IMG/VR virus record: IMGVR_UViG_2695420482_000015
Direction: 5' to 3' (one strand)
Source of the DNA: a virus
Lineage: Duplodnaviria; Heunggongvirae; Uroviricota; Caudoviricetes
DNA length: 38,662 nucleotides
Below the pieces are notes generated by a model. It did no database searches, had not been told where the DNA came from, and saw only the letters and a list, made by a program, of their open reading frames with translations. Both the position numbers and the translations under genes were made by a program. Numbering within the stretch: position 1 is the stretch's first letter; every line of letters begins with the position of its first letter. Positions 1-38,662 of this stretch are shown one piece after another.

Positions 1-1518
1 TCATTCACCCTCCTGATGCGTGGTAGCGGTCCCATTGAAGGGCAAAATAAAATCCCCCAAACAGAAAACAGATTCTTCAGCGACGTAAATAAGCTGACCG
101 TTCAAGCGCAGTGAAACGGGCGCAGAAGTTCGAATCGCAATACGCTGCGCGTCGAGAGTGACCTGTAATTCGCAGCCCTGCCAGAACAGAGGGAAAGACA
201 ACTGTTGCCACTGCTCAGGTAACGCCGGATTGAGATGTAATTCACCGTCACGCACGCTCACCCCGGCAAAACCCTGAATCGCCCCCAGCCAGATAGCGCC
301 AGTTGCGGCAGCGTGGGTACCGTCATCACAGCTATGTGGATCAGCACCAAGATCGATTTCAGTCCCCTCGCGCCAGAACTGATAACTTTGGGTCAGCAGG
401 CCACAGCGTGCGGCAACAATGCCGTGGATTGCTTTACTTAATGACGAGTCGTGAATAGTGCGCGGTTCATAAAATTGCAGATAGGCAAGACACGATGCCG
501 CTGAGAACTGCTCCGGCAGCATGTAATTGAGCATCACCACATCAGCTTGTTTGAGGATCTGCATCTCGTTCACTTCTGCGCGTGAATAATCCAGCAGAAT
601 GGTTTGCTTCCCCGCCGCCGCTTTGTATTTCGCCAGATTAATCACCGGCTTAGCCATAAACGAATCATCCTGCGGCAAAACGCCGTCGGGCTGAATTTCT
701 GGCAGCCGCAGTTCTTTGAGGTACATTTCTGCACGATGAATAAACGCGTCGTCGCTACAGCCAAACTGACGAGCGATATTCAGCGCCTGCTGGACGTTGT
801 AATACGCCATATAGCTGGTGAAGGCGTTATTATTGACATGTTCGGTATATTCGTCTGGCCCAATAACATCATGAATTTCCAGACGGTCGTTAACCCTCAC
901 CGCGCGGCTAATCCAGAACTTTGCCGTCTCCAGAAGTAGCGCCATGCCTTCATGAGCAATGAAACTTTCATCCCCCGTGGTCCGCCAGTATTGAATAACC
1001 GCCCAGGCGATATCGGCCACCAGATGATGTTCCGCCTGCGCAGAGGCCACTTTTTGCCGCAACCCGGTACGAATGTTAATGGCAGCAAATTCCGGCGTCT
1101 CTTCTTCGCCGCTACGCGCGCTTTCCCACGGAAATAGCGCGCCCTGCCAGCCGTTGCGTCGCGCTTTCTCCTGCGCGCCAGGCAAGTTGTGCCAGCGATA
1201 ACGCAGTAAACTTCGGGCAACCATCGGATCGCTAAACAGATGGAACGGTAGCAAAAATACTTCTGTATCCCAGAAAACGTGGCCTTTGTAGCCTTCGCCG
1301 GTTAAACCTTTCGCCGCAATGCTGCTGCGCTCATCGTGGGCAGGCGTCATGATGCGCAGGTGATAAAGCGCATAATCTAACGCTTGCTGATCGTGCGCAT
1401 CGCCGCCGTTTACCGTGATACGACGTTTCTGCCACCATTGACGCCAGTTTTCTGTTGATGCTGCAAGAAGTTGGTCGTAACTCTGCTGCGCGCTGATGCG
1501 CCGCGCGATAAATGCACT
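1..1518 (-). CDS. ycjT: GH65-family glycoside phosphorylase (kojibiose phosphorylase YcjT-like), C-terminal ~505 codons; gene interrupted by prophage insertion
   Basis: ORF 1..1350 translation has GH65 catalytic-domain character (GHVFWDTEVF motif). The same frame stays open upstream to ~1518 with plausible protein sequence, then stops at the prophage junction. N-terminal ~250 codons are absent from the window. Symbol is from memory of the E. coli protein, not a search. Confidence 0.7.
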   Translation of the reverse strand, partial: SAFIARRISAQQSYDQLLAASTENWRQWWQKRRITVNGGDAHDQQALDYALYHLRIMTPAHDERSSIAAKGLTGEGYKGHVFWDTEVFLLPFHLFSDPMVARSLLRYRWHNLPGAQEKARRNGWQGALFPWESARSGEEETPEFAAINIRTGLRQKVASAQAEHHLVADIAWAVIQYWRTTGDESFIAHEGMALLLETAKFWISRAVRVNDRLEIHDVIGPDEYTEHVNNNAFTSYMAYYNVQQALNIARQFGCSDDAFIHRAEMYLKELRLPEIQPDGVLPQDDSFMAKPVINLAKYKAAAGKQTILLDYSRAEVNEMQILKQADVVMLNYMLPEQFSAASCLAYLQFYEPRTIHDSSLSKAIHGIVAARCGLLTQSYQFWREGTEIDLGADPHSCDDGTHAAATGAIWLGAIQGFAGVSVRDGELHLNPALPEQWQQLSFPLFWQGCELQVTLDAQRIAIRTSAPVSLRLNGQLIYVAEESVFCLGDFILPFNGTATTHQEGE

Positions 1519-1571
1519 CTATCTTGTGCGATAAATGGCATCCACGCGGCGTTTCATTATTTGAAAAAGAA

Positions 1572-2144
1572 TTACATTTCAGGTTGCGTTATGACAGTCC
1601 CAACAGGGTGATAGCGGTAGATCGTTGACAGTCCAATATCATAGATAATTGCCAGCCGCTTTCTGTCATACCCTTTCTGGAGCAATCTTGCGATCTGCTC
1701 ATGCTGCTCCTTCGTCAGTTTCGGGCGACGTCCTCCAACTCTTCCTTGTGCTCGCGCAGCAGCCAGTCCAGCCAGCGTGCGCTCAACTATCAGTTCACGC
1801 TCCATTTCTGCCAGTGCACCCATCATATGAAAAAAGAACCTTCCCATCGGAGTGCTGGTATCGATTGAATCCGTCAGACTGCGAAAATTGACACCTTTTG
1901 CGCGTAGCTCTTCTGTGAGAGCAATGAGGTGTTTCATTCTTCTACCCAACCGATCCAGCTTCCAGACCACCAATGTATCCCCTCTTTTAAGGCACTTTAA
2001 AGCGCGTTTCAGGCCTGGTCGTTCCGACTTGGTTCCGCTCATTTTGTCCTCAAAAATCTGTTCACATCCTGCGCACATTAATGCATTGCGTTGCAAATCT
2101 GTGTTTTGGTCATTTGTTGACACACGTATGTAGCCAATCAGCAT
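1572..2144 (-). CDS. gin: Serine DNA invertase (Gin/Hin/Pin family)
   Basis: Translation from internal Met (MLIGYIRVSTNDQNTDLQRNAL...) matches Mu Gin almost residue for residue at the N-terminus, including the catalytic serine context and C-terminal HTH. Lies next to the invertible fibre segment. Confidence 0.95.
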   Translation of the reverse strand: MLIGYIRVSTNDQNTDLQRNALMCAGCEQIFEDKMSGTKSERPGLKRALKCLKRGDTLVVWKLDRLGRRMKHLIALTEELRAKGVNFRSLTDSIDTSTPMGRFFFHMMGALAEMERELIVERTLAGLAAARAQGRVGGRRPKLTKEQHEQIARLLQKGYDRKRLAIIYDIGLSTIYRYHPVGTVITQPEM

Positions 2145-2200
2145 TAAAAATACTCCCTTTTGAGTGGTTAAAGTACTGAGATAATGTGGGGAGGATTTGA

Positions 2201-2224
2201 GAGATAAACGTTGGTTTAGGAGAA
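2201..2224. other. gix/hix-like inversion crossover site (gin-proximal)
   Basis: gagataaacgttggtttaggagaa; its reverse complement ttctcctaaaccaacgtttatctc matches the site at 4174..4199 (shared core ttctccNaaaccaaNgt) and resembles gix/hix half-sites (AAACC..GGTTT). Confidence 0.7.
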
Positions 2225-2713
2225 GCGGCGAAAAGGGATGTGGGCACGACAGTCGGAACCGTTGCCGCTGGTGATGATTTACGCATAATAGGAGCACTTC
2301 AAAAGGCAAATAATCTTTATGAGTTAACAAATAAATCTGACGCAAGAGCTAATCTTGGGTTAGGAACCGTTGCAACAAAAAACGTGGGAAATAGTGCTGG
2401 GCAAATACCTGATATGTCTTACTGGTCTTCCGTATCGGGTGGCGTTAATTTCCCTAATGGATTCCAGATGCGATTCGGTGCTATCGCTGGTAATGGTGGA
2501 AAATTATTTTCTACGCCATTTACAAATCAGTGCTATGGCATTGTTTTCGGACAAACATATGTAGCCAACTACTGGATGTTCAGCCCGATGTACAGAGCAT
2601 CTGATCTGAGTAATACCGGTTTTGCATTCATTAACAAAACCTGGTCTGGCGTTCCGGGGACAGGTGCTCAGGACGCTGGTGAATCAGTTTTTTATATTGC
2701 AGTAGGGTATTAA
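2213..2713 (+). CDS. Alternate tail fibre C-terminal domain (S'v-like, promoterless; expressed only after inversion)
   Basis: Frame is open from the crossover site (…NVGLGEAAKRDVGTTVGT…) with no proper start of its own. Sits inside the invertible segment and is followed by a tail fibre assembly gene. Confidence 0.6.
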   Translation, partial: GLGEAAKRDVGTTVGTVAAGDDLRIIGALQKANNLYELTNKSDARANLGLGTVATKNVGNSAGQIPDMSYWSSVSGGVNFPNGFQMRFGAIAGNGGKLFSTPFTNQCYGIVFGQTYVANYWMFSPMYRASDLSNTGFAFINKTWSGVPGTGAQDAGESVFYIAVGY

Positions 2714-2714
2714 T

Positions 2715-3158
2715 ATGGAAATGGTTTATAGCGCCTCAAATAATAGTTTTTTCGCTAAAAATGATGTGGCGAAATATGAACAGGCCGGATGGGAACTTGC
2801 TGATATTGTCGAAGTGACATATGACACTTACCTGGAATTTATTGAAGACAGAACGTTGCAAGGGAAAGTACGCATCGCGGGTGATGATGGCCTTCCCACC
2901 TGGGGGGAAATTCCACCGCCAACTCATGAGGAACAAATTGCCGCAGCCGAACTGGAAAAGCAGCAATTGATTAATCAGGTCAACGAATACATATACAGTA
3001 AGCAATGGCCTGGTAAAGCAGCGATTGGTCGCCTGAAAGGTGAGGAACTGGCGCAATATAATTTGTGGCTGGATTATCTGGACGCACTGGAACTGGTCGA
3101 TACTTCCGGTGCGCCAGATATTGAATGGCCTACGCCTCCGGCAGTTCAGGCCAGATGA
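2715..3158 (+). CDS. Tail fibre assembly protein (alternate, U'-like)
   Basis: 147 aa; C-terminal motif NLWLDYLDALELVDTSGAPDIEWPTPP is typical of Tfa chaperones and parallels the C-terminus of the 3130..3723 protein. Confidence 0.8.
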   Translation: MEMVYSASNNSFFAKNDVAKYEQAGWELADIVEVTYDTYLEFIEDRTLQGKVRIAGDDGLPTWGEIPPPTHEEQIAAAELEKQQLINQVNEYIYSKQWPGKAAIGRLKGEELAQYNLWLDYLDALELVDTSGAPDIEWPTPPAVQAR

Positions 3159-3723
3159 CGTCCGGCGCTGTGCTGGTATCTGTTGCCGTCACCGCGTCAA
3201 TATAATCCAGCACAGCGTTAAGTCGGGTGTTTTCTGGCTGCGTCAGCTTCCGCCCGGCCTGTAATTTCAGTTGAATCAGACTGATGGAAGCCATTGCAGC
3301 ATCAATCAGCGACTGGCGCTGTGCTTCTGCAGCTTCTACTGCGGCGCTATGCTGTGCCTCGGTATCCGTCACCCATTTCTCACCATCCCATTTATCGTAT
3401 GGCGTTAACGGTGAAAGCGTGACATAACCGTCTTTGATGGCACCGATATAATCCACTGTAACAGCTGCGCCATTTTCAGTTGAGTAAACGGTCTCATTGC
3501 GATGGTCTTCTTCATGGCTCCATCCCTTACCCGTAAATACTGCCACTCTTCCCGGAATGTATTCGCCCGGGTCAATACCAGTGGAACAAACGGGCATACT
3601 TACGCCAGTATTAATATATTCATCAGACCAGCCCGTATATTCAGACGTTACTGCATCATAATAATAACAACGCATATCACCCGGCACTGTAGCCAGCCCA
3701 TTTTCATCAAAAACAGGTTTCAT
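3130..3723 (-). CDS. Tail fibre assembly protein (U-like)
   Basis: 197 aa; C-terminal NAVLDYIDAVTATDTSTAPDVIWPELP Tfa motif; immediately downstream of the fibre gene. Confidence 0.8.
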   Translation of the reverse strand: MKPVFDENGLATVPGDMRCYYYDAVTSEYTGWSDEYINTGVSMPVCSTGIDPGEYIPGRVAVFTGKGWSHEEDHRNETVYSTENGAAVTVDYIGAIKDGYVTLSPLTPYDKWDGEKWVTDTEAQHSAAVEAAEAQRQSLIDAAMASISLIQLKLQAGRKLTQPENTRLNAVLDYIDAVTATDTSTAPDVIWPELPEA

Positions 3724-5177
3724 TATGCAGCCCTCACAATATAATTAAAGGCGATGTTACGTGGACGGTTTTCATTAGCTGTTGGCACGACACGAGAGGC
3801 GTCGAATCCAAGGTCATCGGTTTTGCCTATATCAGTTGTGTTATTCGGCATTCTCGCAGATCGTGTTCCTGCATCATAAAAAGCCCCTCTGATTGCATCA
3901 AAAGACATACCGATCCCGCCATCTGCGAATCCCTCAATATTTCTTATTGCATCCCCCTGTGAAGATAATAATTGTCGCCCGGCATCCACACCACGTCCGT
4001 CATCCCAGCCACGAATAAATTCACCGCGTAAATCCGGCAATTTATTTGTCGGATAAACCTTTGCCAGTTCCGGGTATTCTTCAGCAGAAAAAGCCGCACC
4101 GTTGCATTTCAGCCAGCCAGTAGGCGGTGTGGCTGAAGGCCACGGAACAGGCACACCAACGGGTAATGCCGAACCTTCTCCCAAACCAAGGTAATTGAGG
4201 ACATCTTTTATACTGCCCTTAGCGATAATAGCGCGACCAATAGCTGTAAGGGTTGCCAGCTCTGCGCGGTCTGCTCCGGTAAAATAAGGCAACCGATCTG
4301 CTGCAGTGGCAAGTCCTGCCAGAGCAGTGAGCGTGGCATCTGCCGGTTGTTTTCCGTTTGCCAGATCGTATGCAGCCTTGACCGCTTTCGGTGTGGCGGC
4401 CAGTATTTCAGACGTGCTGTTGATGGCACTGCTCAATTGTACGGTGCCTTTTGCCGTCAGCGAGGCAGCAGGCACTCCCGTTATCTGACTCCACGGGTGA
4501 GTGTGGCTGACGGGCGCCTTGCCGGCTGCAAGGTCGTATGCAGCCTTGACCGCCTTCGGCGTGGCAGCCTCAGTTTCTGATTGACTGTCCGTGGCGCTGC
4601 TCAGTTGTACGGTGCCTTTTGCCGTCAGCGAGGCAGCAGGCACTCCCGTTATCTGACTCCACGGGTGAGTGTGGCTGACGGGCGCCTTGCCGGCTGCAAG
4701 GTCGTATGCAGCCTTGACCGCCTTCGGCGTGGCAGCCTCAGTTTCTGATTGACTGTCCGTGGCGCTGCTCAGTTGTACGGTGCCTTTTGCCGTCAGTGAA
4801 GCCGCAGGCACTCCCGTTATCTGACTCCACGGGTGAGTGTGGCTGGCAGGCGCCTTGCCGGCTGCCAGGTCGTATGCAGCCTTGACCGCTTTTGGTGTGG
4901 CGGCCAGCGTTTCAGAGGTGCTGTTGGTGGCACTGCTCAGTTGGGTGAACCCCTTAGCTGTCAGTGTCGCGTCCGGGTGGTTACGGGAACGTACGTGTTC
5001 AGCCAGTGACTGTGCGGCTTCCTCCGTTTTCTTCTTCAGCCATTTCGTCCTGTTTGCCAGTTGCCGGGGGGCTCGATTTGATATCCCGTCTGCACCACCC
5101 AGAACCGGATCTGATGTCTCCAGTTGATAGATATTTTCTTCCCACTTTTCTGTTTCATTCAGGTTTCCCATAATCAA
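3723..5177 (-). CDS. Tail fibre protein (S/H-like), constant N-terminal part plus invertible C-terminal part
   Basis: 484 aa with four tandem 56-aa fibre repeats (…ATPKAVKAAYDLAAGK…SHTHPWSQITG…). The gix-like site lies within the coding sequence. Confidence 0.9.
   Translation of the reverse strand: MIMGNLNETEKWEENIYQLETSDPVLGGADGISNRAPRQLANRTKWLKKKTEEAAQSLAEHVRSRNHPDATLTAKGFTQLSSATNSTSETLAATPKAVKAAYDLAAGKAPASHTHPWSQITGVPAASLTAKGTVQLSSATDSQSETEAATPKAVKAAYDLAAGKAPVSHTHPWSQITGVPAASLTAKGTVQLSSATDSQSETEAATPKAVKAAYDLAAGKAPVSHTHPWSQITGVPAASLTAKGTVQLSSAINSTSEILAATPKAVKAAYDLANGKQPADATLTALAGLATAADRLPYFTGADRAELATLTAIGRAIIAKGSIKDVLNYLGLGEGSALPVGVPVPWPSATPPTGWLKCNGAAFSAEEYPELAKVYPTNKLPDLRGEFIRGWDDGRGVDAGRQLLSSQGDAIRNIEGFADGGIGMSFDAIRGAFYDAGTRSARMPNNTTDIGKTDDLGFDASRVVPTANENRPRNIAFNYIVRAA
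4174..4199. other. gix/hix-like inversion crossover site (inside tail fibre gene)
   Basis: ccttctcccaaaccaaggtaattgag, in inverted orientation to 2201..2224. Falls on the LGLGE codons of the fibre; the alternate cassette carries VGLGE at its site. Confidence 0.7.
4296..4967. repeat. Tandem 168-bp repeats (about 4 copies) encoding 56-aa tail fibre repeats
   Basis: Near-identical DNA copies with period 168 seen directly (e.g. acggtgccttttgccgtcag at ~4441 and ~4609); flanking copies are more diverged. Confidence 0.8.
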
Positions 5178-5752
5178 CTGCTCCCGTGGTTATAACTGCC
5201 ATCATGGATGGCGGTATTGTTATAGCGAATGGCCACAGACTGATACTCCAGGCTGGCCAGATGGCAGCGGGCCGGTGCAAATGCAGCCAGCGTCTGACGC
5301 AGCATCGCGGCCTGATCGTTAGTAATGGGCTGTTTCAGAATAACGCGATAAACTGCCCAGGCGGCTGCATCTCCATGAACAAACAGTCCGTTATAGCTGC
5401 GATTGCCGTCGTAACTGAGACGACCTGTGCCTTCAATCAGATCCACTTCACCAAAGCCAAAACGGCGGATAACTTCCCGGATTGACCACGGCGTCCCTTT
5501 ATACCGGTGCAGTTCGATGGCTGCTTTTATAAGCATGCGGCGAACATCGTCCGATTCCGCCAGCTCCCAGCCATCGCCAGACAGTGAGAACTGCTCGCCC
5601 AGCCATGGCAGCGCGGAACTGTCGACGATATCGACGAGAAAGACCATCAGTACGCTCAGGTCGATGTTATCCAGCCGTCCTGCCAGTCTTCCCAGCGTCC
5701 TGAGACTGATATCACCCTCAAGCGGTGGCGGGAGTTGTAATGGCTCAGTCAT
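5174..5752 (-). CDS. Tail protein, P2 gpI-like
   Basis: 192 aa; position after baseplate J-like gene and before fibre; sequence character of gpI family. Confidence 0.7.
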   Translation of the reverse strand: MTEPLQLPPPLEGDISLRTLGRLAGRLDNIDLSVLMVFLVDIVDSSALPWLGEQFSLSGDGWELAESDDVRRMLIKAAIELHRYKGTPWSIREVIRRFGFGEVDLIEGTGRLSYDGNRSYNGLFVHGDAAAWAVYRVILKQPITNDQAAMLRQTLAAFAPARCHLASLEYQSVAIRYNNTAIHDGSYNHGSS

Positions 5753-6848
5753 CAGACACTCCAGTCATGTTAAGAGTGATTGCCGTACAGTTTGCCCATT
5801 CGTTTTCTGCCACCACCCGCAGTGCCGGTGTCACCAGTTCAACCTGGTACACCCCGGAAACGGACAATGCACTGATAATCTGGCTGGGGACAATATCGCG
5901 CCCCAGCGTGGCGGCACGTGATGCCACCCAGTTCTGTATGGCGCTGTTAGCGGCATCTTTTACAGACCTGGCATCCTGATCACGATAGATCGTAATCCTG
6001 GCTTCAATGGTGTAATCCACCTTCACTGGTGTTTTAGCCCGCACTGTATCAGTGAGTGGCCTGACTTTCTCATCAGAGCAGAAACTCTCTACCAGCGTGA
6101 GAACACCGCCGTCCGGCAGACCGGTACTGAGCAGCGGATACAGATCTACGGTCCCGGGAACCGGGGAAAGCACAGCAACATCGACAATGTTGGGATGGGC
6201 CTGCATGGCATGAAAGCGGTATGCGCCACGGCTTCCGGCATTGGTGAATGACTCCGGGGCCAGCCTGATACGCTCCCGGAGCCTGTCATCGTCTTCCTGT
6301 TCTGAACCGCCGGAACTGGCCGTCAGATTGCTCACCAGCAGGTCGACGTTATCAATCTCATCGAGTAACTGACTGACCTGCGCAGGTTGCCAGCCGTTAC
6401 CAGCGGTACCGGGTTCGGTACAGGTGGACGTGACATTGACCAGCAGCAATCCGGCCTTCAGTACCACATCTGTATCGGTGGCAAAAATAACGCTGTCGGA
6501 AGCGCTGACGCGGGTGCCTGCCGGGATCAGCACATCAATGGCCAGTGCCTCATCTACGGAGAACTGGAGCGTGGTAGTGGCAGGCTGCGCGGCAAGACGG
6601 TATACACCGACCAGTTCACCGAGGTAATCAATCATCGGCTCACGGGCAAAGGCGACCAGATTCTGCTTTGCTGCCTCCTGTACCGCAACCCTGACCAGCA
6701 TTTCGCGATAGGCCCACAGATCAATCAGCAGACGTTCTGCCTGTGCCGGGTACAGCGTTTTGCCGGTATCCGCTTCATACTTCGCAATCATTTCTGCCGT
6801 GATTTTGTCGGCATCGCGTTCAATAAAATCGGGTTCTGTCAGCGCCAT
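5745..6848 (-). CDS. Baseplate protein, P2 gpJ-like
   Basis: 367 aa; baseplate J-like sequence and synteny (W-J-I-H). Confidence 0.8.
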   Translation of the reverse strand: MALTEPDFIERDADKITAEMIAKYEADTGKTLYPAQAERLLIDLWAYREMLVRVAVQEAAKQNLVAFAREPMIDYLGELVGVYRLAAQPATTTLQFSVDEALAIDVLIPAGTRVSASDSVIFATDTDVVLKAGLLLVNVTSTCTEPGTAGNGWQPAQVSQLLDEIDNVDLLVSNLTASSGGSEQEDDDRLRERIRLAPESFTNAGSRGAYRFHAMQAHPNIVDVAVLSPVPGTVDLYPLLSTGLPDGGVLTLVESFCSDEKVRPLTDTVRAKTPVKVDYTIEARITIYRDQDARSVKDAANSAIQNWVASRAATLGRDIVPSQIISALSVSGVYQVELVTPALRVVAENEWANCTAITLNMTGVSDD

Positions 6849-7186
6849 AGCAGCTCCTGAGTCCGGGTCTGTCCGTCTGAGCCTTTCCAGCTCACCCGGA
6901 GCGTAAGATGTTCGCCGTCGACGGCGGGTTTAACTGACATAAGCTGGCAGCGGGGCTCCCAGCGCCGGATGGCATCGACGGATTCGCGCACCACATGCGG
7001 AATGGCCCGGTCTACAGGCCAGTCGATATAAAGATGCAGATTGCTGCCGAACTCCGGGCGATGCGGGTCGCTGCCGCGGGGAGTCCGCAGGATAATTTGA
7101 ATCGCCTGCCGGATATCATCCAGCCCCCGGACAATTTCGCCGGGAGCCTGCAGGGTCGGTTGCCAGAATACTGAGGTTGTTTTCAT
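6839..7186 (-). CDS. Baseplate wedge protein, gpW/gp25-like
   Basis: 115 aa; size and sequence typical of GPW/gp25; synteny. Confidence 0.75.
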   Translation of the reverse strand: MKTTSVFWQPTLQAPGEIVRGLDDIRQAIQIILRTPRGSDPHRPEFGSNLHLYIDWPVDRAIPHVVRESVDAIRRWEPRCQLMSVKPAVDGEHLTLRVSWKGSDGQTRTQELLWR

Positions 7187-7240
7187 GGGGGCAGTATTGC
7201 CCCCGTGCGGGAACGCTGATATTAAAGGCGTTTAAAAAGC

Positions 7241-12762: not shown

Positions 12763-12837
12763 AGTGGTTAACCTCCGGGGAAGGTGAAAAGACGTGAGGG
12801 GATAACGCAGAACAGCCGCTACTGGCGGCTGTCTGTA

Positions 12838-28842: not shown

Positions 28843-28844
28843 GA

Positions 28845-30948: not shown

Positions 30949-30958
30949 GGAGTAATCA

Positions 30959-31870
30959 ATGGGACGCACCAAATCACCGGTTAGCACTGAACTGAACGTC
31001 GAGGTACCGCTGTCGGATGATCTCAATGTCAGTCTAAACGCCATGACACAGCATCGCATGGAAATCATGCAACAGTTCGGCGATGGTCTGCCCTATGAGC
31101 GCGATCGTGTTGTCCATGAGGCACGCTTTTATATGGCACAGAGCGCTGAGGCCATGCTGGAGGCAGGTAAGCGGCTGATAATCCTTAAGGAAAATGAACC
31201 ACACGGGGAGTTTATAAAGATTCTTGAAAGTGAGTTGGGGCTGGCATACCGGACATCTGTGAGAATGATGCAAGCATCGACAAAATACTTATCCCCGGCG
31301 CTGAAACCAAATGTGCCAACGTTGGCACATTTGGGAAAAGCCAAACTTTTCGAATTAATGACAGAAGACGACGAAGAGCTTGCCGAACTGGCCGACGGCG
31401 GCACAGTTGCCGGCCTGACGCTTGACGACGTTGATCGCATGTCAGTACGTGAATTGCGTCAGGCCCTGCGCGAAGCGCGCGAAACCAACGCAGCACAACA
31501 GCGCGTACTCGCTGACAAAAATGAAAAAATAGACTCACTCTCCACCAGACTGGAGAAGAAATCCCGTATTCAGCCGCCTGAGCCTGATGAAGAGGTTAAG
31601 AAGCTGCGGGCGGAAGTGACAGCATTAGCGGTTGAGGCGGAATCTGCTATCGCCGTTCGACTGTCCAGCGCTTTTGAGACGCTGTGCGCATATTGTGCTG
31701 AAAACATGATTGATACCCCCAGAGACTTCATGGCAGGCCTGGTCTGTCAACTGGAAAGCACAGCGCGTAGCCTGCGCTCCACATTTGACCTGCCGGATGA
31801 GCCAACAGGCAATGCCGCGCCTTCATGGCTGACTGAGCCGACGCCACAGATTAACGGGCTGGAGGCATAA
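30959..31870 (+). CDS. Hypothetical early protein
   Basis: 303 aa ORF with coiled-coil region, immediately upstream of the transposase. Confidence 0.5.
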   Translation: MGRTKSPVSTELNVEVPLSDDLNVSLNAMTQHRMEIMQQFGDGLPYERDRVVHEARFYMAQSAEAMLEAGKRLIILKENEPHGEFIKILESELGLAYRTSVRMMQASTKYLSPALKPNVPTLAHLGKAKLFELMTEDDEELAELADGGTVAGLTLDDVDRMSVRELRQALREARETNAAQQRVLADKNEKIDSLSTRLEKKSRIQPPEPDEEVKKLRAEVTALAVEAESAIAVRLSSAFETLCAYCAENMIDTPRDFMAGLVCQLESTARSLRSTFDLPDEPTGNAAPSWLTEPTPQINGLEA

Positions 31871-31873
31871 CCA

Positions 31874-33643
31874 ATGAATGCTGCCCTGACTGAACGACTG
31901 GTTTATGTCGCCCGCGCGGCACGTGACGCGGGGCATGGTAAACGCGGTGCAATATACGACGCTGCCTGTGCTGAACTTGGCATGTCCCGCGCCACTCTGC
32001 TGCGCAGGCTGAAGGAGGTCTCTGTGACTGATAAACGCAAAAAACGCGCTGATGCCGGACGCAGCGCCCTGACCCGCGACGAAGCCGCGCTGATATCTGC
32101 CACACTGCGTGAGGCCACCCGCAAGAACGGTAAGCGTCTCTATTCCATCGCGGATGCAGTGGAAACCCTGCGGGCTAACGGCTTTATCTCCGCAGGCAGA
32201 ACAGATGAAACCACCGGTGAGTTTTTCCCGTTGTCCGAAGATGCCATCAGTCGTGCCCTGCGTAACTATGGCCTGCACCCGGAACAACTGGATGCTCCTG
32301 CGCCGCATACCGAAGTGGCCAGTCTGCATCCCAATCATGTCTGGCAGATTGATGCCTCGCTCTGCACGCTTTACTACCTGAGCAATGGACACAAAGGGCT
32401 GCAGGTGATGGACAGCGCGAAGTTCTACAAGAACAAACCCGCTAACCTTGCCCGTATCGCCAGTGACCGCGTGTGGAGTTACGAGATTACCGACCATGCC
32501 AGCGGCTGGATTTACGTTGAGTATGTGACGGGTGCGGAATCCGGTGAGAACCTGTGTTCTGTGCTTATCAACGCCATGCAGGAGCGTGGCGGCGCAGACG
32601 TGCTGCACGGCGTGCCAAAAATACTCTATCTCGACCCCGGTTCGGCAAACACCGCGGGTATGACGAAAAACATGTGCCGCTCACTGGGCATTGACCTGAT
32701 AGCGCACAAGCCGCATAACGCCCGCGCCACCGGACAGGTGGAAAAGGCGCGTGACATTATCGAACGCAAGCTGGAGCCGGGTCTGAAGTTCCGGCCGGTT
32801 CACAGTCTGGAAGAACTCAACGCGCTGGCCGCGAAATGGCGCAGCCACTTTAACGCCACGGCTGTTCACAGCCGCCACGGTAAAACCCGCACGGATATCT
32901 GGCTGAAGATTACTGCTGAGCAGCTGAAAAAAGCGCCTTCCGTTGAGGTATGTCGTGAACTGGCTGTGGCGGCACCAGAACTCCGCAAAGTCACGCCAAA
33001 ACTTCGTGTCTCGTTCCGGGGCACTGAATTTGACGTATCAACGGTACCGGGCGTACTGGTTGGTGAAAAACTGATGATTACCCGTAACCCATGGCGCAGC
33101 GATGTGGCACAGGTGGTTCTGACCGGTGAGGACGGCCACGAGACGTTCTTCCTGGTCGAAGAGGTCAGAAAGAACGAGTTTGGCTTTGCTGAAGGCGCGG
33201 CGGTATTTGGCGAAAGTTACAAAGCCCTGCCGGAAACCCCGGCACAGATGGCGGCAAAAGAAACCGAAGCGCTGGTTACCGGTACAGACAACGCCGCAGA
33301 TGCAGCCGCCGCACGCAAGGCGAAGGCGCTGCCGTTCGGCGGGCGGCTTGACCCGTATAAACATATCGACGACACCACACTTCCGGCCTATATGCCGAAG
33401 CGTGGTCAGGCCTCTGACGTACGCGGGCCGCGCACTGAACAACGTCCCATGACTCATGTGGAGGCCGCGAAAGCCCTGCGCGATAAGTTCAGCGCCGACG
33501 GCCTTACCTGGACGCCGGAACATTACCGCCAGTTAACGGCACAGTACCCGGACGGCGTACCGGAAGCCGCACTGGATGAAGTCATGGCCACGCTGACCAC
33601 ACCGGCCCGCAGCAGTGTTATCAGCATTGTTAACGGCAACTGA
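31874..33643 (+). CDS. DDE transposase (integrase-core type; functional analogue of Mu A, BcepMu TnpA-like)
   Basis: 589 aa; candidate DDE triad in HVWQIDAS, ILYLDPGSAN and TGQVEKAR; followed by MuB-like ATPase; lacks the MuA N-terminal domain. Confidence 0.8.
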   Translation: MNAALTERLVYVARAARDAGHGKRGAIYDAACAELGMSRATLLRRLKEVSVTDKRKKRADAGRSALTRDEAALISATLREATRKNGKRLYSIADAVETLRANGFISAGRTDETTGEFFPLSEDAISRALRNYGLHPEQLDAPAPHTEVASLHPNHVWQIDASLCTLYYLSNGHKGLQVMDSAKFYKNKPANLARIASDRVWSYEITDHASGWIYVEYVTGAESGENLCSVLINAMQERGGADVLHGVPKILYLDPGSANTAGMTKNMCRSLGIDLIAHKPHNARATGQVEKARDIIERKLEPGLKFRPVHSLEELNALAAKWRSHFNATAVHSRHGKTRTDIWLKITAEQLKKAPSVEVCRELAVAAPELRKVTPKLRVSFRGTEFDVSTVPGVLVGEKLMITRNPWRSDVAQVVLTGEDGHETFFLVEEVRKNEFGFAEGAAVFGESYKALPETPAQMAAKETEALVTGTDNAADAAAARKAKALPFGGRLDPYKHIDDTTLPAYMPKRGQASDVRGPRTEQRPMTHVEAAKALRDKFSADGLTWTPEHYRQLTAQYPDGVPEAALDEVMATLTTPARSSVISIVNGN

Positions 33644-33653: not shown

Positions 33654-34820
33654 ATGCTGGTACTGAAGCAGCAACTGAAAGAGGCCCGTATTCCACAGGC
33701 GGTGGTGGCGAGAGCTGTCGATGTTTCTGAGGCCACGCTGGCCCAGATTGTGAATCATAACGCGTGGCCCCGCACCAGCCCCGGAGAAGTGCGCCGGCGT
33801 CTTGCGTCCTGGCTGGAAAGTCAGGGGATTGATACAACGAAGAGTTTTGATGCTGTACAGGGCGCGGCCACGCCCCGTACAGCGGGTACCACAGATAAAA
33901 CGAGCCTCAGTGAGGAAGAGAATATGTTACTCAAAAAACAGGTGTTATTTCCAGCAACCAAAAAAGCGTTTGGTCTTTTCCGTGACCCGTTCGCCGACGA
34001 AGCCATGCAGGGTTCTGATGATGTGTTCACCACCCCGGATATTCGCTACGTGCGTGAGGCGTTGTACCAGACAGCCCGTCATGGTGGGTTTATGGCCGTC
34101 ATCGGTGAGTCCGGTGCGGGTAAATCCACGCTGCGCCGCGACCTGACTGAACGTATCAACCGCGAGAATGCGCCGGTAATTGTTATCGAGCCATACATCA
34201 TCGCTATGGAAGACAACGATGTGAAAGGGAAAACCCTGAAGGCAGCAGCGATTGCCGAAGCCATTATCAGTACCATCGCACCACTGGAAAGCATCAGACG
34301 CAGTCAGGACGCCCGCTTTCGCCAGTTGCATCGCGTCCTGAAAGACAGCAGCCAGGCGGGGTTCAGCCACGTTCTGGTGATTGAGGAGGCCCACAGTCTG
34401 CCCATTCCGACACTGAAACACCTCAAACGCTTTTTTGAGCTGGAGTCCGGTTTCAAAAAACTGCTGTCCATCGTGCTGATTGGCCAGCCGGAACTGGCGA
34501 CAAAACTGTCTGAACGCAATATGGAAGTCCGTGAAGTCGTTCAGCGCTGTGAGGTGGTCGAACTTCTGCCTCTGGACAATAACCTTGAAGAGTTTCTGAC
34601 GTTCAAACTGCAACGGGCCGGTAAACAACTGACGGACATTATGGACGCCAGCGCAGTGGATGCCATACGTGCCCGCCTGAGCAATCCGGGAAGTCATCGT
34701 AAAAATATGGTCAGCCTGCTGTATCCGCTGGCCGTCAGTAACCTGGTAATAGCCGCCATGAATCTGGCCGCTGAAATCGGGGTTCCACAGGTCAACGCTG
34801 ACGTTGTCAAAGGGGTTTAA
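33654..34820 (+). CDS. Transposition helper ATPase (MuB/TniB-like AAA+)
   Basis: Start at ATG after GGAGGG; Walker A (GESGAGKST) and Walker B-like (HVLVIEEAH). Confidence 0.8.
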   Translation: MLVLKQQLKEARIPQAVVARAVDVSEATLAQIVNHNAWPRTSPGEVRRRLASWLESQGIDTTKSFDAVQGAATPRTAGTTDKTSLSEEENMLLKKQVLFPATKKAFGLFRDPFADEAMQGSDDVFTTPDIRYVREALYQTARHGGFMAVIGESGAGKSTLRRDLTERINRENAPVIVIEPYIIAMEDNDVKGKTLKAAAIAEAIISTIAPLESIRRSQDARFRQLHRVLKDSSQAGFSHVLVIEEAHSLPIPTLKHLKRFFELESGFKKLLSIVLIGQPELATKLSERNMEVREVVQRCEVVELLPLDNNLEEFLTFKLQRAGKQLTDIMDASAVDAIRARLSNPGSHRKNMVSLLYPLAVSNLVIAAMNLAAEIGVPQVNADVVKGV

Positions 34821-35119: not shown

Positions 35120-35650
35120 ATGGCAAAAAGTACAAAAGGGGCAAAACGTATCAAAGCCGCAGCAGCACTCTGGGTGCCGGGGACACGCGAAGAGGTCATT
35201 GAGGGAATCAGACTGCTTGGTGACGCGCAACGTGAACTGGTCAGGGCTGAAACAGAAATGAATGACACCATTGGCGACATCACTGCACGTTATGCCCCGC
35301 TCACCGAGAGCCTGAAAAAACGCATGGCCGAACTGCAGTCCGGTATCCAGACATGGTGTGAGGCGCACCGTGATGAACTGACCGGCAACGGGAAGGTGAA
35401 GTTCGCTAACCTCACCACCGGCGAGGTGCAGTGGCGAAACCGTCCGCCGTCAGTCAGCATTCGCGGGGCGGATAATGTCATTGAACTGCTGAGACGTCTG
35501 GGGCTTGAGCGCTTTATTCGTGTAAAGGAGGAAATAAATAAAGATGCCATTCTGAATGAAAAAGAGGCTGTGAAAAATATTCCCGGTATTACCATAAAAA
35601 GTGATATTGAGGATTTTTCAATAATTCCTTTTGAGCAGGATGTGCAGTAA
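35120..35650 (+). CDS. gam: Host-nuclease inhibitor protein Gam (Mu Gam/Ku-like)
   Basis: 176 aa; close match to recalled Mu Gam along its length (MAK…KRIK…AAA…ETEMND…WCEA(N/H)RDELT…RPPSVSIRG…GITVKSGIEDFSIIPFEQ). Confidence 0.9.
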   Translation: MAKSTKGAKRIKAAAALWVPGTREEVIEGIRLLGDAQRELVRAETEMNDTIGDITARYAPLTESLKKRMAELQSGIQTWCEAHRDELTGNGKVKFANLTTGEVQWRNRPPSVSIRGADNVIELLRRLGLERFIRVKEEINKDAILNEKEAVKNIPGITIKSDIEDFSIIPFEQDVQ

Positions 35651-37427: not shown

Positions 37428-37654
37428 TTACGCTATCAGGTAAAAGCCGGAAATTAAAAGCCTGCCGAATATCTGCCAGATACCTTTTTGCCCGCGCCTT
37501 TTTTAAGAACGTCAGGCCGGGGATCACAATTGGTGTTATTGCCGGACGCGAACAGGTTGAAAAATACATGTCAGGTGCATGGTGGAATAACGACCCTGTC
37601 ATTGCTGCCCGTAATATTCATATCGAATGGGGAGGTATTCAGAATGACTACTGA
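37424..37654 (+). CDS. Hypothetical small early protein
   Basis: 76 aa ORF. Confidence 0.4.
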   Translation: MITLSGKSRKLKACRISARYLFARAFFKNVRPGITIGVIAGREQVEKYMSGAWWNNDPVIAARNIHIEWGGIQNDY

Positions 37655-37850
37655 AACCATTGTCTGTTTTCTTTTCTGGTATATGTACGCAGGATCATGC
37701 AGCGCAAGACTTCATCGTTCCCTGGGCTATGGCAGGCACTACGACACCGCGCATTACATCCTGTACATGACCGCCGTCATGTTGTTCTGGCCAGTCCCCC
37801 TGCCAGCTGCAACCGACATTGTTGCCGACAGACTGAAAAAAAGGAGATGA
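37644..37850 (+). CDS. Small membrane protein
   Basis: 68 aa from internal Met (MTTETIVCFLFWYMYAG…), two hydrophobic segments. Confidence 0.4.
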   Translation: MTTETIVCFLFWYMYAGSCSARLHRSLGYGRHYDTAHYILYMTAVMLFWPVPLPAATDIVADRLKKRR

Positions 37851-37851
37851 T

Positions 37852-38301
37852 ATGCAGAAAAAACGCCTGATACAGCTTATCCATATTGCCCGTAATGAAC
37901 TGGGTATGGATGAAGACACCTACCGCCAGATGTTACAGGGGCTGACCGGTAAAGCCTCAACCAAAGGAATGGATACCACACAACTAAACTGCGTGCTGGA
38001 ATCCATGAAAAAGAAAGGCTTTCGCGTTAAACCAGCCAGAAAAGCCAGCTCCGGTTTACCGCTTGATAACCATCCGCAGTCCAGGAAAATTCGTGCGCTA
38101 TGGCTTGAAATGGCTGCTGCCGGCATTGTTCGTGACCGTTCAGAAAATGCATTAGCGAGGTGGATCAAGCGGGAAACGGGCATCAGCGCCCTGCGCTGGC
38201 TCAGTACTGAACAGGCAAGCAGTGTTATTGAGAAACTGAAGAAGTGGCAGCGCAGAGCTGCGGGAGTCAAACATGAGCGACCTGAATCAGTTTCGAAGTA
38301 A
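37852..38301 (+). CDS. gemA: GemA-like regulatory protein (Mu gp16-like)
   Basis: 149 aa; N-terminal LIQLIHIARNELGMDEDTYRQMLQGLTGKAS pattern typical of Mu GemA-family proteins; immediately upstream of mor. Confidence 0.75.
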   Translation: MQKKRLIQLIHIARNELGMDEDTYRQMLQGLTGKASTKGMDTTQLNCVLESMKKKGFRVKPARKASSGLPLDNHPQSRKIRALWLEMAAAGIVRDRSENALARWIKRETGISALRWLSTEQASSVIEKLKKWQRRAAGVKHERPESVSK

Positions 38302-38662
38302 GGGGCCGGAACTCCTGGTGGAACTGGCACAGCATACCTCTGAGACCGTTCGCGAGATTATTGATATTGAGCCCGAAGTTGCCGACCAGATTGGTCAGGC
38401 CGTCGCGAACCGAATGATGCAGGTCTGGGGCGGGCAAAACGTTTATTTCCCGATGGGCATGGTATGGAAGGTCAGTCAGCGCGACCGGGAAATCTTCAGG
38501 GAGTTTAACGGACGCAACCACCACGAACTGGCCCGCAAATTTGGTGTTTCGCTTCAGTGGGTCTACAGCGTGGTTAAGCGGGTAAGAAAAGAAGAACTGG
38601 ATCGGATGCAGGGCAAGCTATTTGCTGATGAACCCGATGCAGATACGGAGAAAAAAGAGTAA
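38273..38662 (+). CDS. mor: Middle operon regulator Mor-like transcription activator
   Basis: 129 aa (same length as Mu Mor) with C-terminal HTH (ELARKFGVSLQWVYSVVKR); stop codon is the last triplet of the window. Confidence 0.8.
   Translation: MSDLNQFRSKGPELLVELAQHTSETVREIIDIEPEVADQIGQAVANRMMQVWGGQNVYFPMGMVWKVSQRDREIFREFNGRNHHELARKFGVSLQWVYSVVKRVRKEELDRMQGKLFADEPDADTEKKE

What the first reader, a model, noticed from the sequence alone, without database searches (positions are those of the whole stretch)
1513..38662. Transposable prophage with divergent early/late arms and a non-MuA DDE transposase, inserted in a sugar phosphorylase gene
Head, tail and many early genes (gam, gemA, mor, ner-like) are Mu-like, but the late genes are on the opposite strand from the early operon. 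The transposase has an integrase-core type DDE domain rather than the MuA architecture. As I recall, this resembles the BcepMu/SalMu family. Insertion inside a host coding sequence fits random transposition.
Basis: partly seen in the sequence, partly recalled or inferred. Interest (0 to 1): 0.6.

Follow-up and report, generated by a model that had tools for sequence, protein, structure and literature searches.

The report
BcepMu-like transposable prophage in ycjT

Summary
Window 1-1493 is the 3' part of E. coli ycjT. A Mu-like transposable prophage starts at 1494, not 1513, and runs past the window end to about 163 bp beyond the Mor stop codon, giving about 37.3 kb. Late genes (lysis, Mu-like head, P2-like tail) lie on the minus strand and early genes on the plus strand. 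They diverge from a repressor/early-promoter region at about 30.3 kb.

The element is collinear with Burkholderia phage BcepMu: 36 of 53 proteins match in the same order, and the transposase is 68.5% identical to gp09. Its ends are built like BcepMu's, with TG...CA termini and two GATAWWT boxes 23 bp apart. The transposase has only an rve Pfam domain and no MuA domains. Its predicted fold is nevertheless the multi-domain TnsB/IstA/MuA type.

Relatives sit at 28 or more different chromosomal sites, and three of them have 6-bp target duplications. A predicted ycjT-prophage fusion protein that requires a 6-bp duplication (GCGCGC) exists exactly in the source assembly, so the window's own far junction is confirmed.

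The family occurs in about 12% of complete E. coli genomes and has deposited phage records (PhiKM, 97.8% identical). Verdict: already known, low interest. Side notes are a Gin-type invertible tail-fibre segment and a YejK-like protein plus membrane protein cassette that may be an anti-phage defence.

The parts
1..1493 (-). 3' 1493 nt of host gene ycjT (kojibiose phosphorylase), truncated by the insertion. Its last 6 bp, GCGCGC at 1488-1493, are one copy of the target-site duplication.
   Evidence: It is 99.9% identical to intact ycjT in many E. coli genomes, and the match stops at 1493. Pfam finds Glyco_hydro_65m and 65C.
1494..1560 (.). Tail-side terminus of the prophage. It begins 5'-TG and carries two direct GCGATAAATG boxes (1505-1514 and 1528-1537) 23 bp apart, which are the presumed transposase binding sites.
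   Evidence: It aligns with both BcepMu termini; TGAAGCGCGGCGCGATATTT...GCGCGATAAATT is the tail-side one.
1572..2144 (-). Gin/Cin/Pin-type serine DNA invertase (190 aa).
   Evidence: Pfam Resolvase E=1.6e-50 plus HTH_7. Annotated as a recombinase family protein in relatives.
2199..4200 (.). Invertible tail-fibre segment of about 1.98 kb between two crossover sites in inverted orientation: 2199-2225 (GAGAGATAAACG TT GGTTTAGGAGAAG) and 4175-4200 (CTTCTCCCAAACC AA GGTAATTGAGG). It carries the alternative fibre tip and chaperone (2240-2713 +, 2715-3158 +) and the currently expressed chaperone and fibre tip (3130-3723 -, 3723 to about 4188 -).
   Evidence: Homology to JJ1886 stops at 2225. In strain RIVM_C036569 the homologue of 3723-4192 lies in the opposite orientation next to the invertase.
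3723..5177 (-). Tail fibre gene, made of a constant N-terminal part and an invertible C-terminal tip. It contains a 168-bp x 3.5 tandem repeat at 4359-4943.
   Evidence: Pfam Phage_fiber_2 and Collar. TRF result. Partial hit to BcepMu gp52.
5174..15585 (-). P2-like contractile tail module: gpI, gpJ, gpW, gpV, gpD, gpX, gpU, tape measure (10072-12762), assembly chaperone, tube and sheath (14158-15585).
   Evidence: Pfam families. 46-76% identity to BcepMu gp39-gp51, in the same order.
15575..24280 (-). Mu-like head and packaging module: gp36/gp37-like proteins, DUF2190, major capsid (17086-18039), protease/scaffold, Mu G, Mu F, portal (20647-22143), large terminase (22143-23738) and the gp27-like small subunit (23735-24280).
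   Evidence: Pfam Portal_Mu, Phage_Mu_F, Phage_tail_S and Phage_Mu_Gp27. 45-67% identity to BcepMu gp27-gp38.
24280..26629 (-). Lysis cassette and two small membrane or lipoproteins: holin (26279-26629), SLT-type endolysin (25548-26276) and an Rz-like spanin (24914-25564).
   Evidence: Pfam Holin_2-3 and SLT. PHROG Rz-like spanin E=1e-91. Homologous to BcepMu gp21-gp26.
26877..27647 (+). Dam-type N6-adenine DNA methyltransferase, which is cargo.
   Evidence: Pfam MethyltransfD12 E=7e-28. PADLOC MTase_II E=4e-115.
27637..29852 (-). Two-gene cargo cassette downstream of, and co-oriented with, the repressor. It has lower GC (40-45%). The genes encode a YejK/NA37-like nucleoid-associated protein (28845-29852) and a 401-aa protein (27637-28842) with an acidic N-terminal domain and 2-3 C-terminal transmembrane helices. 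It is a candidate anti-phage system.
   Evidence: Pfam NA37 E=1e-80. NCBIfam DS1_1 and DS1_2 anti-phage models, E=1e-17 and 3e-21, both well below the curated cut-offs. Charge and hydropathy. GC profile. Architecture of type II PANGU.
29923..30330 (-). CI-type HTH repressor (135 aa), transcribed divergently from the early operon.
   Evidence: Pfam HTH_3 and Phage_CI_repr. Same position as BcepMu gp17.
30347..30374 (+). Candidate early promoter: TTGACA, 16 nt spacer, TACAAT (11 of 12 matches).
   Evidence: This is a consensus match only.
30419..31870 (+). First early genes: a small HTH protein of the BcepMu gp16 family in the Ner position (30419-30643), a winged-helix regulator (30640-30948) and a DUF3102 protein (30959-31870).
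   Evidence: 36-41% identity to BcepMu gp12 and gp10.
31874..33643 (+). DDE transposase (589 aa) with catalytic residues D160, D254 and E290.
   Evidence: Pfam rve only. 68.5% identical to BcepMu gp09. The triad is invariant in a 61-sequence alignment. AF2 pLDDT 89.5 with best folds TnsB, IstA and MuA.
33654..34820 (+). AAA+ transposition ATPase (ExeA-like), the functional counterpart of MuB, TnsC and IstB.
   Evidence: Pfam AAA_22 E=4e-20 with no Phage-MuB_C domain. 58.9% identical to BcepMu gp08. PHROG 'DNA transposition protein'.
35120..35650 (+). Gam host-nuclease inhibitor.
   Evidence: Pfam Phage_Mu_Gam E=1e-40. 61.5% identical to Mu Gam, with no BcepMu counterpart.
37852..38301 (+). GemA-like protein.
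   Evidence: Pfam GemA E=8e-41.
38273..38662 (+). Mor/C-family late transcription activator. It is the last gene, and the prophage end lies about 163 bp beyond the window.
   Evidence: Pfam Mor E=1e-43. 54% identical to BcepMu gp01. Right-end mapping.

Best explanation
Window 1494-38662, plus about 163 bp beyond the window, is an apparently intact temperate transposable myovirus of the BcepMu type, integrated by DDE transposition into E. coli ycjT.

**What it is.** It combines four blocks:
- a BcepMu-type early arm (CI-like repressor, small HTH, DUF3102 protein, rve-family DDE transposase, ExeA-like AAA+ ATPase, GemA, Mor);
- a Mu-like head module;
- a P2-like contractile tail;
- two features that BcepMu lacks but Mu has, namely a gam gene and a Gin-type invertible tail-fibre segment.

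**How it most likely works.**
- In the lysogen, the repressor (29923-30330) shuts the rightward early promoter at about 30350-30374.
- The repressor-side transcript may also express the downstream cargo: the YejK-like protein and the membrane protein.
- On induction the early operon makes the transposase. The transposase binds the paired GATAWWT boxes at the TG...CA ends.
- Together with the AAA+ ATPase, it carries out strand transfer into nearly random targets with a 6-bp stagger.
- Gam protects free DNA ends.
- Mor then turns on the leftward late genes for lysis, packaging, head and tail.
- The invertase flips the 2-kb fibre segment to switch host range.

**Shown here:** gene content, synteny with BcepMu, the exact termini, 6-bp duplications, many insertion sites, the inverted fibre segment in a relative, and the ycjT disruption at both junctions.

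**Inferred from the Mu and BcepMu paradigms:** replicative transposition, repressor and Mor control, headful packaging, and activity of this particular copy.
For: **Host gene and left junction.**

**Right end.**
- The right end is defined by sharp divergence after ...TCTAATCA in 29 loci.
- Three complete genomes show 6-bp duplications flanking whole prophages of 37.4-39.6 kb: GAAGAA, TCTGTT and GGTGAC.

**The window's own right junction.**
- The predicted 270-aa YcjT(1-260)+LIRLEINDRE fusion requires a 6-bp duplication.
- It is an exact database entry, CTW09382.1, on a 224,504-bp contig.
- That is the length of the contig whose 11,350-bp overlap with the window is 100% identical.

**Relationship to BcepMu.**
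- Synteny and identities to BcepMu.
- Homologous end architecture.

**Transposition proteins.**
- Pfam results and the MuA control.
- DDE triad.
- Predicted structure and PDB fold matches.

**Abundance and recent mobility.**
- The family is present in 640 of 5426 complete E. coli genomes.
- A copy 99.95% identical over 34.6 kb sits in a different gene in an ETEC strain.

**Deposited phage records.** PhiKM, KP12 and Phi06_2974 B.

**Literature on the BcepMu family.**
- TG...CA termini and an rve/Tn552-like transposase (PMC2628397).
- The relatives SalMu, PhotoMu and ChromoMu (PMC3417384).
- Bcepmuvirus prophages in ST131 and among inducible gut phages.
Against: - No experiment shows that this copy is inducible.
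- The right 163 bp and the right flank were not read as DNA. They are inferred from relatives and from the exact match of a predicted fusion protein.
- Nucleotide similarity to BcepMu itself is only about 23%. The element is therefore BcepMu-like in architecture and proteins, not a close relative by the ICTV genus rule, even though GenBank files PhiKM in Bcepmuvirus.
- The tape-measure protein is 896 aa here and 983 aa in JJ1886 and RIVM. The 896-aa form also occurs in the ETEC copy, so this is probably a length variant and not damage.
- Promoter and regulatory assignments are consensus matches or analogies.
Confidence: 0.93

Rival explanations
1. Two adjacent elements: the plus-strand early region (about 30.4-38.7 kb) belongs to a different mobile element from the minus-strand head and tail genes, and the two merely abut.
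For: - The strands are opposite.
- A low-GC cargo block sits between them.
- The region between holin and repressor varies among relatives.
Against: - In three complete genomes one pair of TG...CA ends and one 6-bp duplication enclose both arms.
- BcepMu, a phage isolated as particles, has the same two arms in the same relative order and orientation.
- Ten or more loci carry both arms with the same junction genes.
- No internal copies of the terminal sequence were found in these loci.
Confidence: 0.02
2. A defective, immobile prophage remnant that was inherited vertically at ycjT and can no longer transpose or form particles.
For: - Many E. coli prophages are cryptic.
- The shorter tape-measure gene could be a deletion.
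- No induction data exist for this strain.
Against: - All 53 genes are open, with lengths equal to those of relatives.
- There is no IS insertion, unlike the JJ1886 copy, which carries an IS66.
- The ycjT insertion is rare: 4 assemblies in the large collection and none of 5426 complete genomes.
- A copy 99.95% identical lies at another site in an unrelated ETEC strain. This argues for recent movement.
- PhiKM, 97.8% identical, is deposited as a phage.
Confidence: 0.12
3. A true Mu-type (Muvirus) prophage whose early arm has simply been inverted by a rearrangement.
For: - Gam is 61.5% identical to Mu Gam.
- GemA and Mor families are present.
- The element has a Gin-type invertible fibre segment and a Mu-like head module.
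Against: - The transposase and ATPase show no BLAST similarity to MuA or MuB and lack all Mu-specific Pfam domains.
- The duplication is 6 bp. Mu makes 5 bp (my own knowledge of Mu).
- The ends match BcepMu rather than Mu.
- The tail is P2-like.
- The arrangement is shared by the whole BcepMu family, so it is not a recent inversion.
Confidence: 0.02

Closest known systems
Burkholderia phage BcepMu (NC_005882) and the BcepMu-like prophages SalMu, PhotoMu and ChromoMu (Summer et al. 2004, as cited in PMC3417384 and PMC2628397)
   Same: - Gene order and orientation match along the whole genome.
- It has an rve/Tn552-like DDE transposase (68.5% identity) and an ExeA-like AAA+ ATPase (58.9%).
- The termini are TG...CA, with two GATAWWT boxes 23 bp apart.
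- The repressor is divergent from the early operon, and Mor sits at the extreme end.
- It has the holin-SLT-Rz lysis cassette, a Mu-like head and a P2-like tail.
- It inserts into varied sites, including coding sequences.
   Different: - Nucleotide similarity is only about 23%.
- The window element has gam and a Gin-type invertase with an invertible fibre segment, which BcepMu lacks.
- BcepMu instead has an acyltransferase at the tail end, plus HU-like, SSB-like and DUF3164 early genes.
- The cargo between the lysis genes and the repressor differs.
Escherichia phage PhiKM (PQ738613), Klebsiella phage KP12 (OM835952), Escherichia phage Phi06_2974 B (KM389306), and the prophage between aroA and ycaL in E. 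coli ST131 (JJ1886, EC958)
   Same: - It is the same phage lineage: 97.8% (PhiKM) and about 85% (KP12, Phi06_2974 B) nucleotide identity over most of 14000-38662.
- The termini are identical.
- It occurs in 640 of 5426 complete E. coli genomes.
   Different: - The insertion site differs: ycjT here, ycaL in ST131.
- The content of the cargo slot differs. ST131 has three small ORFs, Dam and an IS66. The window has Dam, a YejK-like protein and a membrane protein.
- The invertible-segment cassettes differ.
- The tape-measure length differs: 896 versus 983 aa.
Escherichia phage Mu (NC_000929)
   Same: - Both follow a transposable temperate myovirus lifestyle.
- Both have Gam, GemA and Mor/C-family regulators, Mu-type portal, F, G and gp27 head genes, and a gin-type invertible fibre segment.
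- The termini are TG...CA.
- The transposase has the same overall predicted domain order as MuA (Foldseek E=3.5e-10 to 4fcy).
   Different: - It has no MuA or MuB sequence homology and none of their Pfam domains.
- The early arm is transcribed away from the late genes rather than towards them.
- The duplication is 6 bp, not 5 bp.
- There is a single Mor/C homologue.
- The tail and baseplate are P2-like.
Tn7/CAST TnsB-TnsC and IS21 IstA-IstB transposition modules
   Same: - The predicted transposase fold is best matched by ShCAST TnsB (E=1e-17), IstA and Tn7 TnsB.
- The transposase is paired with an adjacent AAA+ ATPase gene.
   Different: - Sequence identity is only 13-16%.
- The element is a phage genome, not a transposon or an IS.
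- It has no TnsA, TnsD or CRISPR targeting partners.
Type II PANGU (Pag2A nucleoid-associated protein plus Pag2B membrane effector; bioRxiv 10.64898/2026.04.06.716658) and the DS-1 system of DefensePredictor (NCBIfam NF053868 and NF053869). This comparison concerns the cargo cassette only.
   Same: - A YejK-like gene is immediately followed by a gene for a protein with an acidic N-terminal domain and a C-terminal transmembrane domain.
- Both proteins hit the DS1_1 and DS1_2 anti-phage models.
   Different: - Scores are far below the NCBIfam equivalog cut-offs: 64 versus 330 bits and 76 versus 315 bits.
- The sequences of the tested PANGU systems were not available for comparison.
- No functional data exist for this cassette.

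Membership tests
BcepMu-like transposable phages | rve/Tn552-type DDE transposase homologous to BcepMu gp09 | tested here: met
   68.5% identity over 581 aa. Pfam finds rve only in both proteins. D160, D254 and E290 are invariant.
BcepMu-like transposable phages | ExeA-like AAA+ transposition protein homologous to BcepMu gp08, encoded next to the transposase | tested here: met
   58.9% identity. Pfam AAA_22. The gene lies directly downstream of the transposase gene.
BcepMu-like transposable phages | 5'-TG...CA-3' termini with repeated transposase-binding boxes (PMC2628397) | tested here: met
   The left end in the window starts with TG and has two GCGATAAATG boxes 23 bp apart. It aligns with both BcepMu ends. 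The CA end was read in 29 related loci. For this copy it is supported by the exact fusion-protein match.
BcepMu-like transposable phages | Early operon transcribed divergently from the lysis, head and tail genes, with Mor at the extreme end | tested here: met
   ORF map compared with the BcepMu annotation.
BcepMu-like transposable phages | Mu-like head module joined to a P2-like tail module, syntenic with BcepMu gp21-gp52 | tested here: met
   29 consecutive late proteins hit BcepMu counterparts in order, at 31-76% identity. Pfam families.
BcepMu-like transposable phages | Insertion at many sites with a short target-site duplication | tested here: met
   28 distinct chromosomal flanks with no consensus. 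6-bp duplications in three genomes. This copy's 6-bp GCGCGC duplication is inferred from the exact match of the predicted fusion protein.
Genus Bcepmuvirus in the strict ICTV sense | At least 70% nucleotide identity over the genome to the type species (ICTV genus guideline, from my own knowledge) | tested here: not met
   One-way blastn similarity to BcepMu is about 23%: 34% of the sequence aligned at 68% identity. GenBank nevertheless labels PhiKM as Bcepmuvirus.
Mu-type phages (Muvirus) | MuA transposase architecture (HTH_Tnp_Mu_1, HTH_Tnp_Mu_2, DDE_2, Mu-transpos_C) and MuB with Phage-MuB_C | tested here: not met
   None of these Pfam domains is present, whereas MuA and MuB show all of them. 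There are no BLAST hits.
Mu-type phages (Muvirus) | Early, middle and late genes all transcribed in one direction from the c end | tested here: not met
   Late genes are on the minus strand and early genes on the plus strand.
Mu-type phages (Muvirus) | Invertible G-type tail-fibre segment with a gin-type invertase | tested here: met
   Resolvase/HTH_7 invertase. Inverted crossover sites. The segment is found in the opposite orientation in a relative.
Type II PANGU / DS-1 anti-phage systems (cargo cassette only) | Operon of a YejK-like nucleoid-associated protein and an effector with an acidic N-terminal domain and a C-terminal transmembrane domain | tested here: met
   Pfam NA37 E=1e-80. N-terminal pI 4.96 and transmembrane segments at 285-311 and 356-378. 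The two genes are 2 bp apart on the same strand.
Type II PANGU / DS-1 anti-phage systems (cargo cassette only) | Score above the NCBIfam equivalog cut-offs for DS1_1 and DS1_2 | tested here: not met
   63.7 bits against a cut-off of 330, and 75.9 bits against 315. This indicates distant homology only.
Type II PANGU / DS-1 anti-phage systems (cargo cassette only) | Protection against phage infection that needs both genes | not testable with these tools
   This needs plaque assays.

The most novel reading that the evidence does not exclude
**Proposed reading.** The slot between the lysis genes and the repressor is a swap-in cargo site of this prophage lineage. In this copy it carries a distant relative of the recently described nucleoid-protein-sensor defences (type II PANGU / DS-1).

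- The cassette sits directly downstream of, and co-oriented with, the repressor. This is the same layout as the lambda cI-rexA-rexB operon.
- A randomly transposing phage found in about 12% of E. coli genomes would then spread an abortive-infection system that senses host-DNA degradation.
- The same phage also carries a Dam methylase and a Gam nuclease inhibitor. These could tune that sensor during its own lytic cycle.

**Status.** The defence function, the co-transcription with the repressor and any interplay with Gam or Dam are all untested.
Probability: 0.4. Interest if true: 0.4.

Novelty: already known. Interest (0 to 1): 0.15.

Why it matters
**Main value.** The result clears this finding. 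The element is a routine member of a well-populated prophage lineage that standard tools already label as BcepMu-like.

**Practical consequences.**
- The prophage disrupts ycjT. It probably also uncouples the downstream genes pgmB, ycjV and ompG from their operon promoter in this strain.
- Because the lineage inserts almost anywhere, it is a source of insertional mutations and strain-to-strain variation in E. coli.
- Its variable cargo slot and invertible fibre segment are places where new defence genes or host-range determinants may turn up.

Tried and rejected
1. **Right junction as DNA.** I searched for CTCAAGTCTAATCA-N(0-10)-ACATTTCAAGCTGACGAAGCG in genome contigs and metagenome contigs. 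Both scans found nothing.

2. **Reaching the source contig's right flank by exact-protein look-ups.** I tried Mor, the YejK-like protein and the transposase.
   - These proteins are too common (575 to 27,640 blocks), so the ycjT copy was never among the places shown.
   - No rare allele exists in the right arm.
   - The look-ups did yield about 28 other insertion sites.

4. **Accession NZ_CP042947.** It is not in the E. coli collection.

5. **Target-site consensus.** Among 29 flanks no position is strongly biased.

6. **Generic inverted-repeat search for the invertible segment's ends**. It missed them because only about 13 bp are shared. They were found with a gix-like pattern and by homology break points.

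7. **Programmed frameshift in the tail chaperone gene.** I found no convincing slippery site and did not pursue it.

8. **PADLOC on cargo genes of other relatives.** There were no defence hits apart from HTH regulators.

9. **Kiwa.** I considered it for the 401-aa protein because of a weak KwaA hit (E=8e-5). I set it aside because the partner protein has no KwaB hit and the DS1 and PANGU architecture fits better.

10. **Rfam and tRNA scans.** Both found nothing.

Full report
**What is in the window.**
- Bases 1-1493 are 99.9% identical to the 3' part of E. coli ycjT (kojibiose phosphorylase, minus strand). The match to more than 5000 genomes stops at 1493.
- The intact gene continues ...CTGCGCGC|ACATTTCAAGC. 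The window continues ...CTGCGCGC|TGATGCGCCGCGCGATAAATGC.
- The same sequence, starting at the same TG, borders a prophage in ST131 strain JJ1886, where it abuts the third codon of ycaL.
- The window contains no tRNA gene and no Rfam family.

**Gene map.** From 1572 to 26629 everything is on the minus strand, in this order:
- a Gin-type invertase;
- tail-fibre genes;
- a P2-like baseplate, tail, tape-measure, tube and sheath block;
- a Mu-like head block (gp36/37-like proteins, capsid, protease, Mu G, Mu F, Mu portal, large terminase, Mu gp27-like small subunit);
- a lysis cassette (Rz-like spanin, SLT endolysin, holin).

A lower-GC cargo block follows at 26877-29852. It holds a Dam methylase on the plus strand, and a YejK/NA37-like protein and a 401-aa membrane protein on the minus strand.

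Next comes a CI-type repressor on the minus strand (29923-30330), facing a near-consensus promoter on the plus strand (30347-30374).

The plus-strand early operon then runs to the window end:
- a small HTH protein;
- a winged-helix regulator;
- a DUF3102 protein;
- the transposase (31874-33643);
- an AAA_22 ATPase (33654-34820);
- Gam;
- several small ORFs and a DUF2786/DUF7168 protein;
- GemA and Mor.

The window ends exactly at the Mor stop codon.

**The other end.**
- In JJ1886 and 28 further loci that carry the same right arm, the sequences are identical for 163-164 bp past the Mor stop, up to ...CTCAAGTCTAATCA. Beyond that point they diverge completely. The window therefore stops about 163 bp short of the right terminus, and the prophage is about 37.3 kb.
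- In three complete genomes the whole unit is flanked by 6-bp direct repeats:
  - GAAGAA in ycaL (JJ1886, 39.6 kb including an IS66);
  - TCTGTT in hyfJ (RIVM_C036569);
  - GGTGAC in a lambdoid gpK gene (ETEC L4_E1441).
- The ends are TG...CA.
- The 29 distinct flanks comprise 28 chromosomal sites plus the PhiKM record. They show no target consensus.

**The window's own far junction.**
- Direct searches for the junction DNA failed.
- Exact-protein look-ups never surfaced the source contig's right side.
- I then predicted the ORF that a gene caller would find there: ycjT nucleotides 1-781, followed by the reverse complement of the family right end.
- With a 6-bp duplication (GCGCGC) this gives a 270-aa protein ending ...LRQLEMCA-LIRLEINDRE.
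- That exact sequence is in the protein collection as CTW09382.1, on a contig of 224,504 bp. The variants for 4-bp and 7-bp duplications are absent.
- 224,504 bp is the length of CYDO01000008.1 (GCA_001285645.1). Its 11,350-bp overlap with the window has no mismatch.
- Both junctions of this insertion are therefore accounted for, and joining the flanks restores ycjT.
- Three independent read-set assemblies carry the same left junction.

**Relationship to BcepMu.**
- The BcepMu genome has the same layout read from the other end: Mor, GemA, early genes, the ATPase gp08, the transposase gp09, gp10, small regulators, then the divergent repressor gp17, holin, SLT, Rz, the terminase small subunit, TerL, portal, F, G, protease, capsid, sheath, tube, tape measure, the P2-like baseplate and the fibre.
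- BLASTP links 36 of the 53 window proteins to BcepMu proteins in that order.
- The termini are homologous. Each end of both phages starts TGA(A/T) and carries a G(C/A)GATAWWT box at positions 12-21 and a second box 23 bp further in.
- The literature describes the BcepMu family as Mu-like phages with an rve/Tn552-like transposase and TG...CA ends. It names SalMu, PhotoMu and ChromoMu as relatives (PMC2628397; PMC3417384).
- At the nucleotide level the window element is only about 23% similar to BcepMu. It belongs to the BcepMu architectural family but is not a close relative.

**The transposase.**
- As a control, MuA shows HTH_Tnp_Mu_1, HTH_Tnp_Mu_2, DDE_2 and Mu-transpos_C, and MuB shows Phage-MuB_C. 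The window proteins and BcepMu gp09 and gp08 show only rve and AAA_22.
- There is no BLAST hit to MuA or MuB.
- NCBIfam gives weak IS481 and IS21 similarity.
- A search of 1.8 billion cluster representatives found 393 clusters at E<=1e-30, nearly all 570-620 aa.
- In a 61-sequence alignment D160, D254 and E290 are invariant, a DD(35)E triad.
- AlphaFold2 with that alignment gives pLDDT 89.5. The model shows an HTH, a winged HTH, an RNase H-like core, a beta-barrel and C-terminal helices.
- Foldseek against the PDB ranks ShCAST TnsB first (E=1e-17), then IstA, then Tn7 TnsB, then the Mu transpososome (E=3.5e-10).
- 'Non-MuA' is therefore correct for the sequence family. The protein is still a full TnsB/MuA-class transposase with an adjacent AAA+ partner, not a minimal integrase core.

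**How common it is.**
- The right arm is present in 640 of 5426 complete E. coli genomes.
- The transposase family occurs across Enterobacterales and Burkholderia and in 69 phage records.
- PhiKM is 97.8% identical over most of the late and early arms.
- An ETEC prophage at another site is 99.95% identical over 34.6 kb.
- Papers already list Bcepmuvirus or BcepMu-like prophages in UPEC, in ST131 and among inducible gut phages.

**Features beyond BcepMu.**
1. gam, 61.5% identical to Mu gam.
2. A Gin-type invertase plus an invertible fibre segment of about 2 kb.
   - The two crossover sites share CTTCTCC(T/C)AAACC in inverted orientation.
   - Homology with JJ1886 ends at the first site.
   - A relative carries the fibre tip in the flipped orientation.
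   - BcepMu is reported to lack such a segment.
3. The cargo cassette.
   - The YejK-like protein and the 401-aa protein hit the NCBIfam models DS1_1 ('nucleoid-associated anti-phage protein') and DS1_2, well below the cut-offs.
   - The 401-aa protein has an acidic N-terminal domain and a C-terminal transmembrane region.
   - The layout matches type II PANGU.
   - A YejK domain has been validated in defence.
   - The same cassette is in 19 complete genomes. Other relatives carry unrelated genes in the same slot.

**Verdict.** The element is an ordinary, already catalogued BcepMu-like transposable prophage, so interest is low. The cargo cassette is the only part that might repay further work.

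Noticed in passing
window 27637-29852 (minus strand), with Dam at 26877-27647: A lower-GC two-gene cassette lies directly downstream of the repressor. It encodes a YejK/NA37-like nucleoid-associated protein and a 401-aa protein with an acidic N-terminal domain and C-terminal transmembrane helices. Both proteins are distant hits to the NCBIfam DS1_1 and DS1_2 anti-phage models, and the layout matches type II PANGU. The cassette is present in 19 complete E. coli genomes, always within this prophage lineage in the loci I saw.
   Followed up: partly
window 1572-5177: A Gin-type invertase sits beside an invertible tail-fibre segment of about 2 kb. The crossover sites are at 2199-2225 and 4175-4200. 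A relative (RIVM_C036569, L038 38665-39134) carries the fibre tip in the opposite orientation, and JJ1886 has a different, more complex set of cassettes. BcepMu lacks this feature and Mu has it.
   Followed up: partly
window 26630-29922 compared with L002 28615-33690 and L032 5049-8475: The slot between the holin and the repressor holds different genes in different relatives. The window has Dam with the YejK-like and membrane proteins. ST131 has three small ORFs, Dam and an IS66. Others have DUF2441, a 203-aa protein and a Flk_N-like protein. It behaves as a cargo exchange site. PADLOC recognises nothing in the alternative sets.
   Followed up: partly
window 4359-4943: A 168-bp (56-aa) tandem repeat, 3.5 copies at 90% match, lies inside the constant part of the tail-fibre gene. 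The fibre gene differs in length among relatives (1455 bp here, 1893 bp in RIVM_C036569).
   Followed up: no
window 10072-12762: The tape-measure protein is 896 aa here and in the ETEC L4_E1441 copy, but 983 aa in JJ1886 and RIVM_C036569. It looks like an in-frame length variant.
   Followed up: no
window 1 and 38662: The window starts exactly at the ycjT stop codon and ends exactly at the Mor stop codon. The cut points follow gene boundaries, which is why the last 163 bp of the prophage are missing.
   Followed up: yes
L017 (DRR567787 contig), L016, L015: Short-read assemblies with the same ycjT junction break 30 bp into the prophage end, inside the invertible segment, and inside the fibre repeat, respectively. 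This pattern is expected if the end sequence is repeated or the segment is heterogeneous within the culture.
   Followed up: no
L001 (PhiKM record) 20200-20740: In the deposited PhiKM 'partial genome', the tail-fibre end is joined to the Mor end through a stretch annotated as an Fe2+ ABC transporter permease. This is probably host DNA carried at the virion or prophage ends, so the record is a permuted assembly.
   Followed up: no
L030 21560-21770: One related locus has a gene next to the prophage with rve plus Mu-transpos_C_2 domains, which suggests a Tn7-like TniA/TnsB. It is unrelated to the prophage's own transposase.
   Followed up: no
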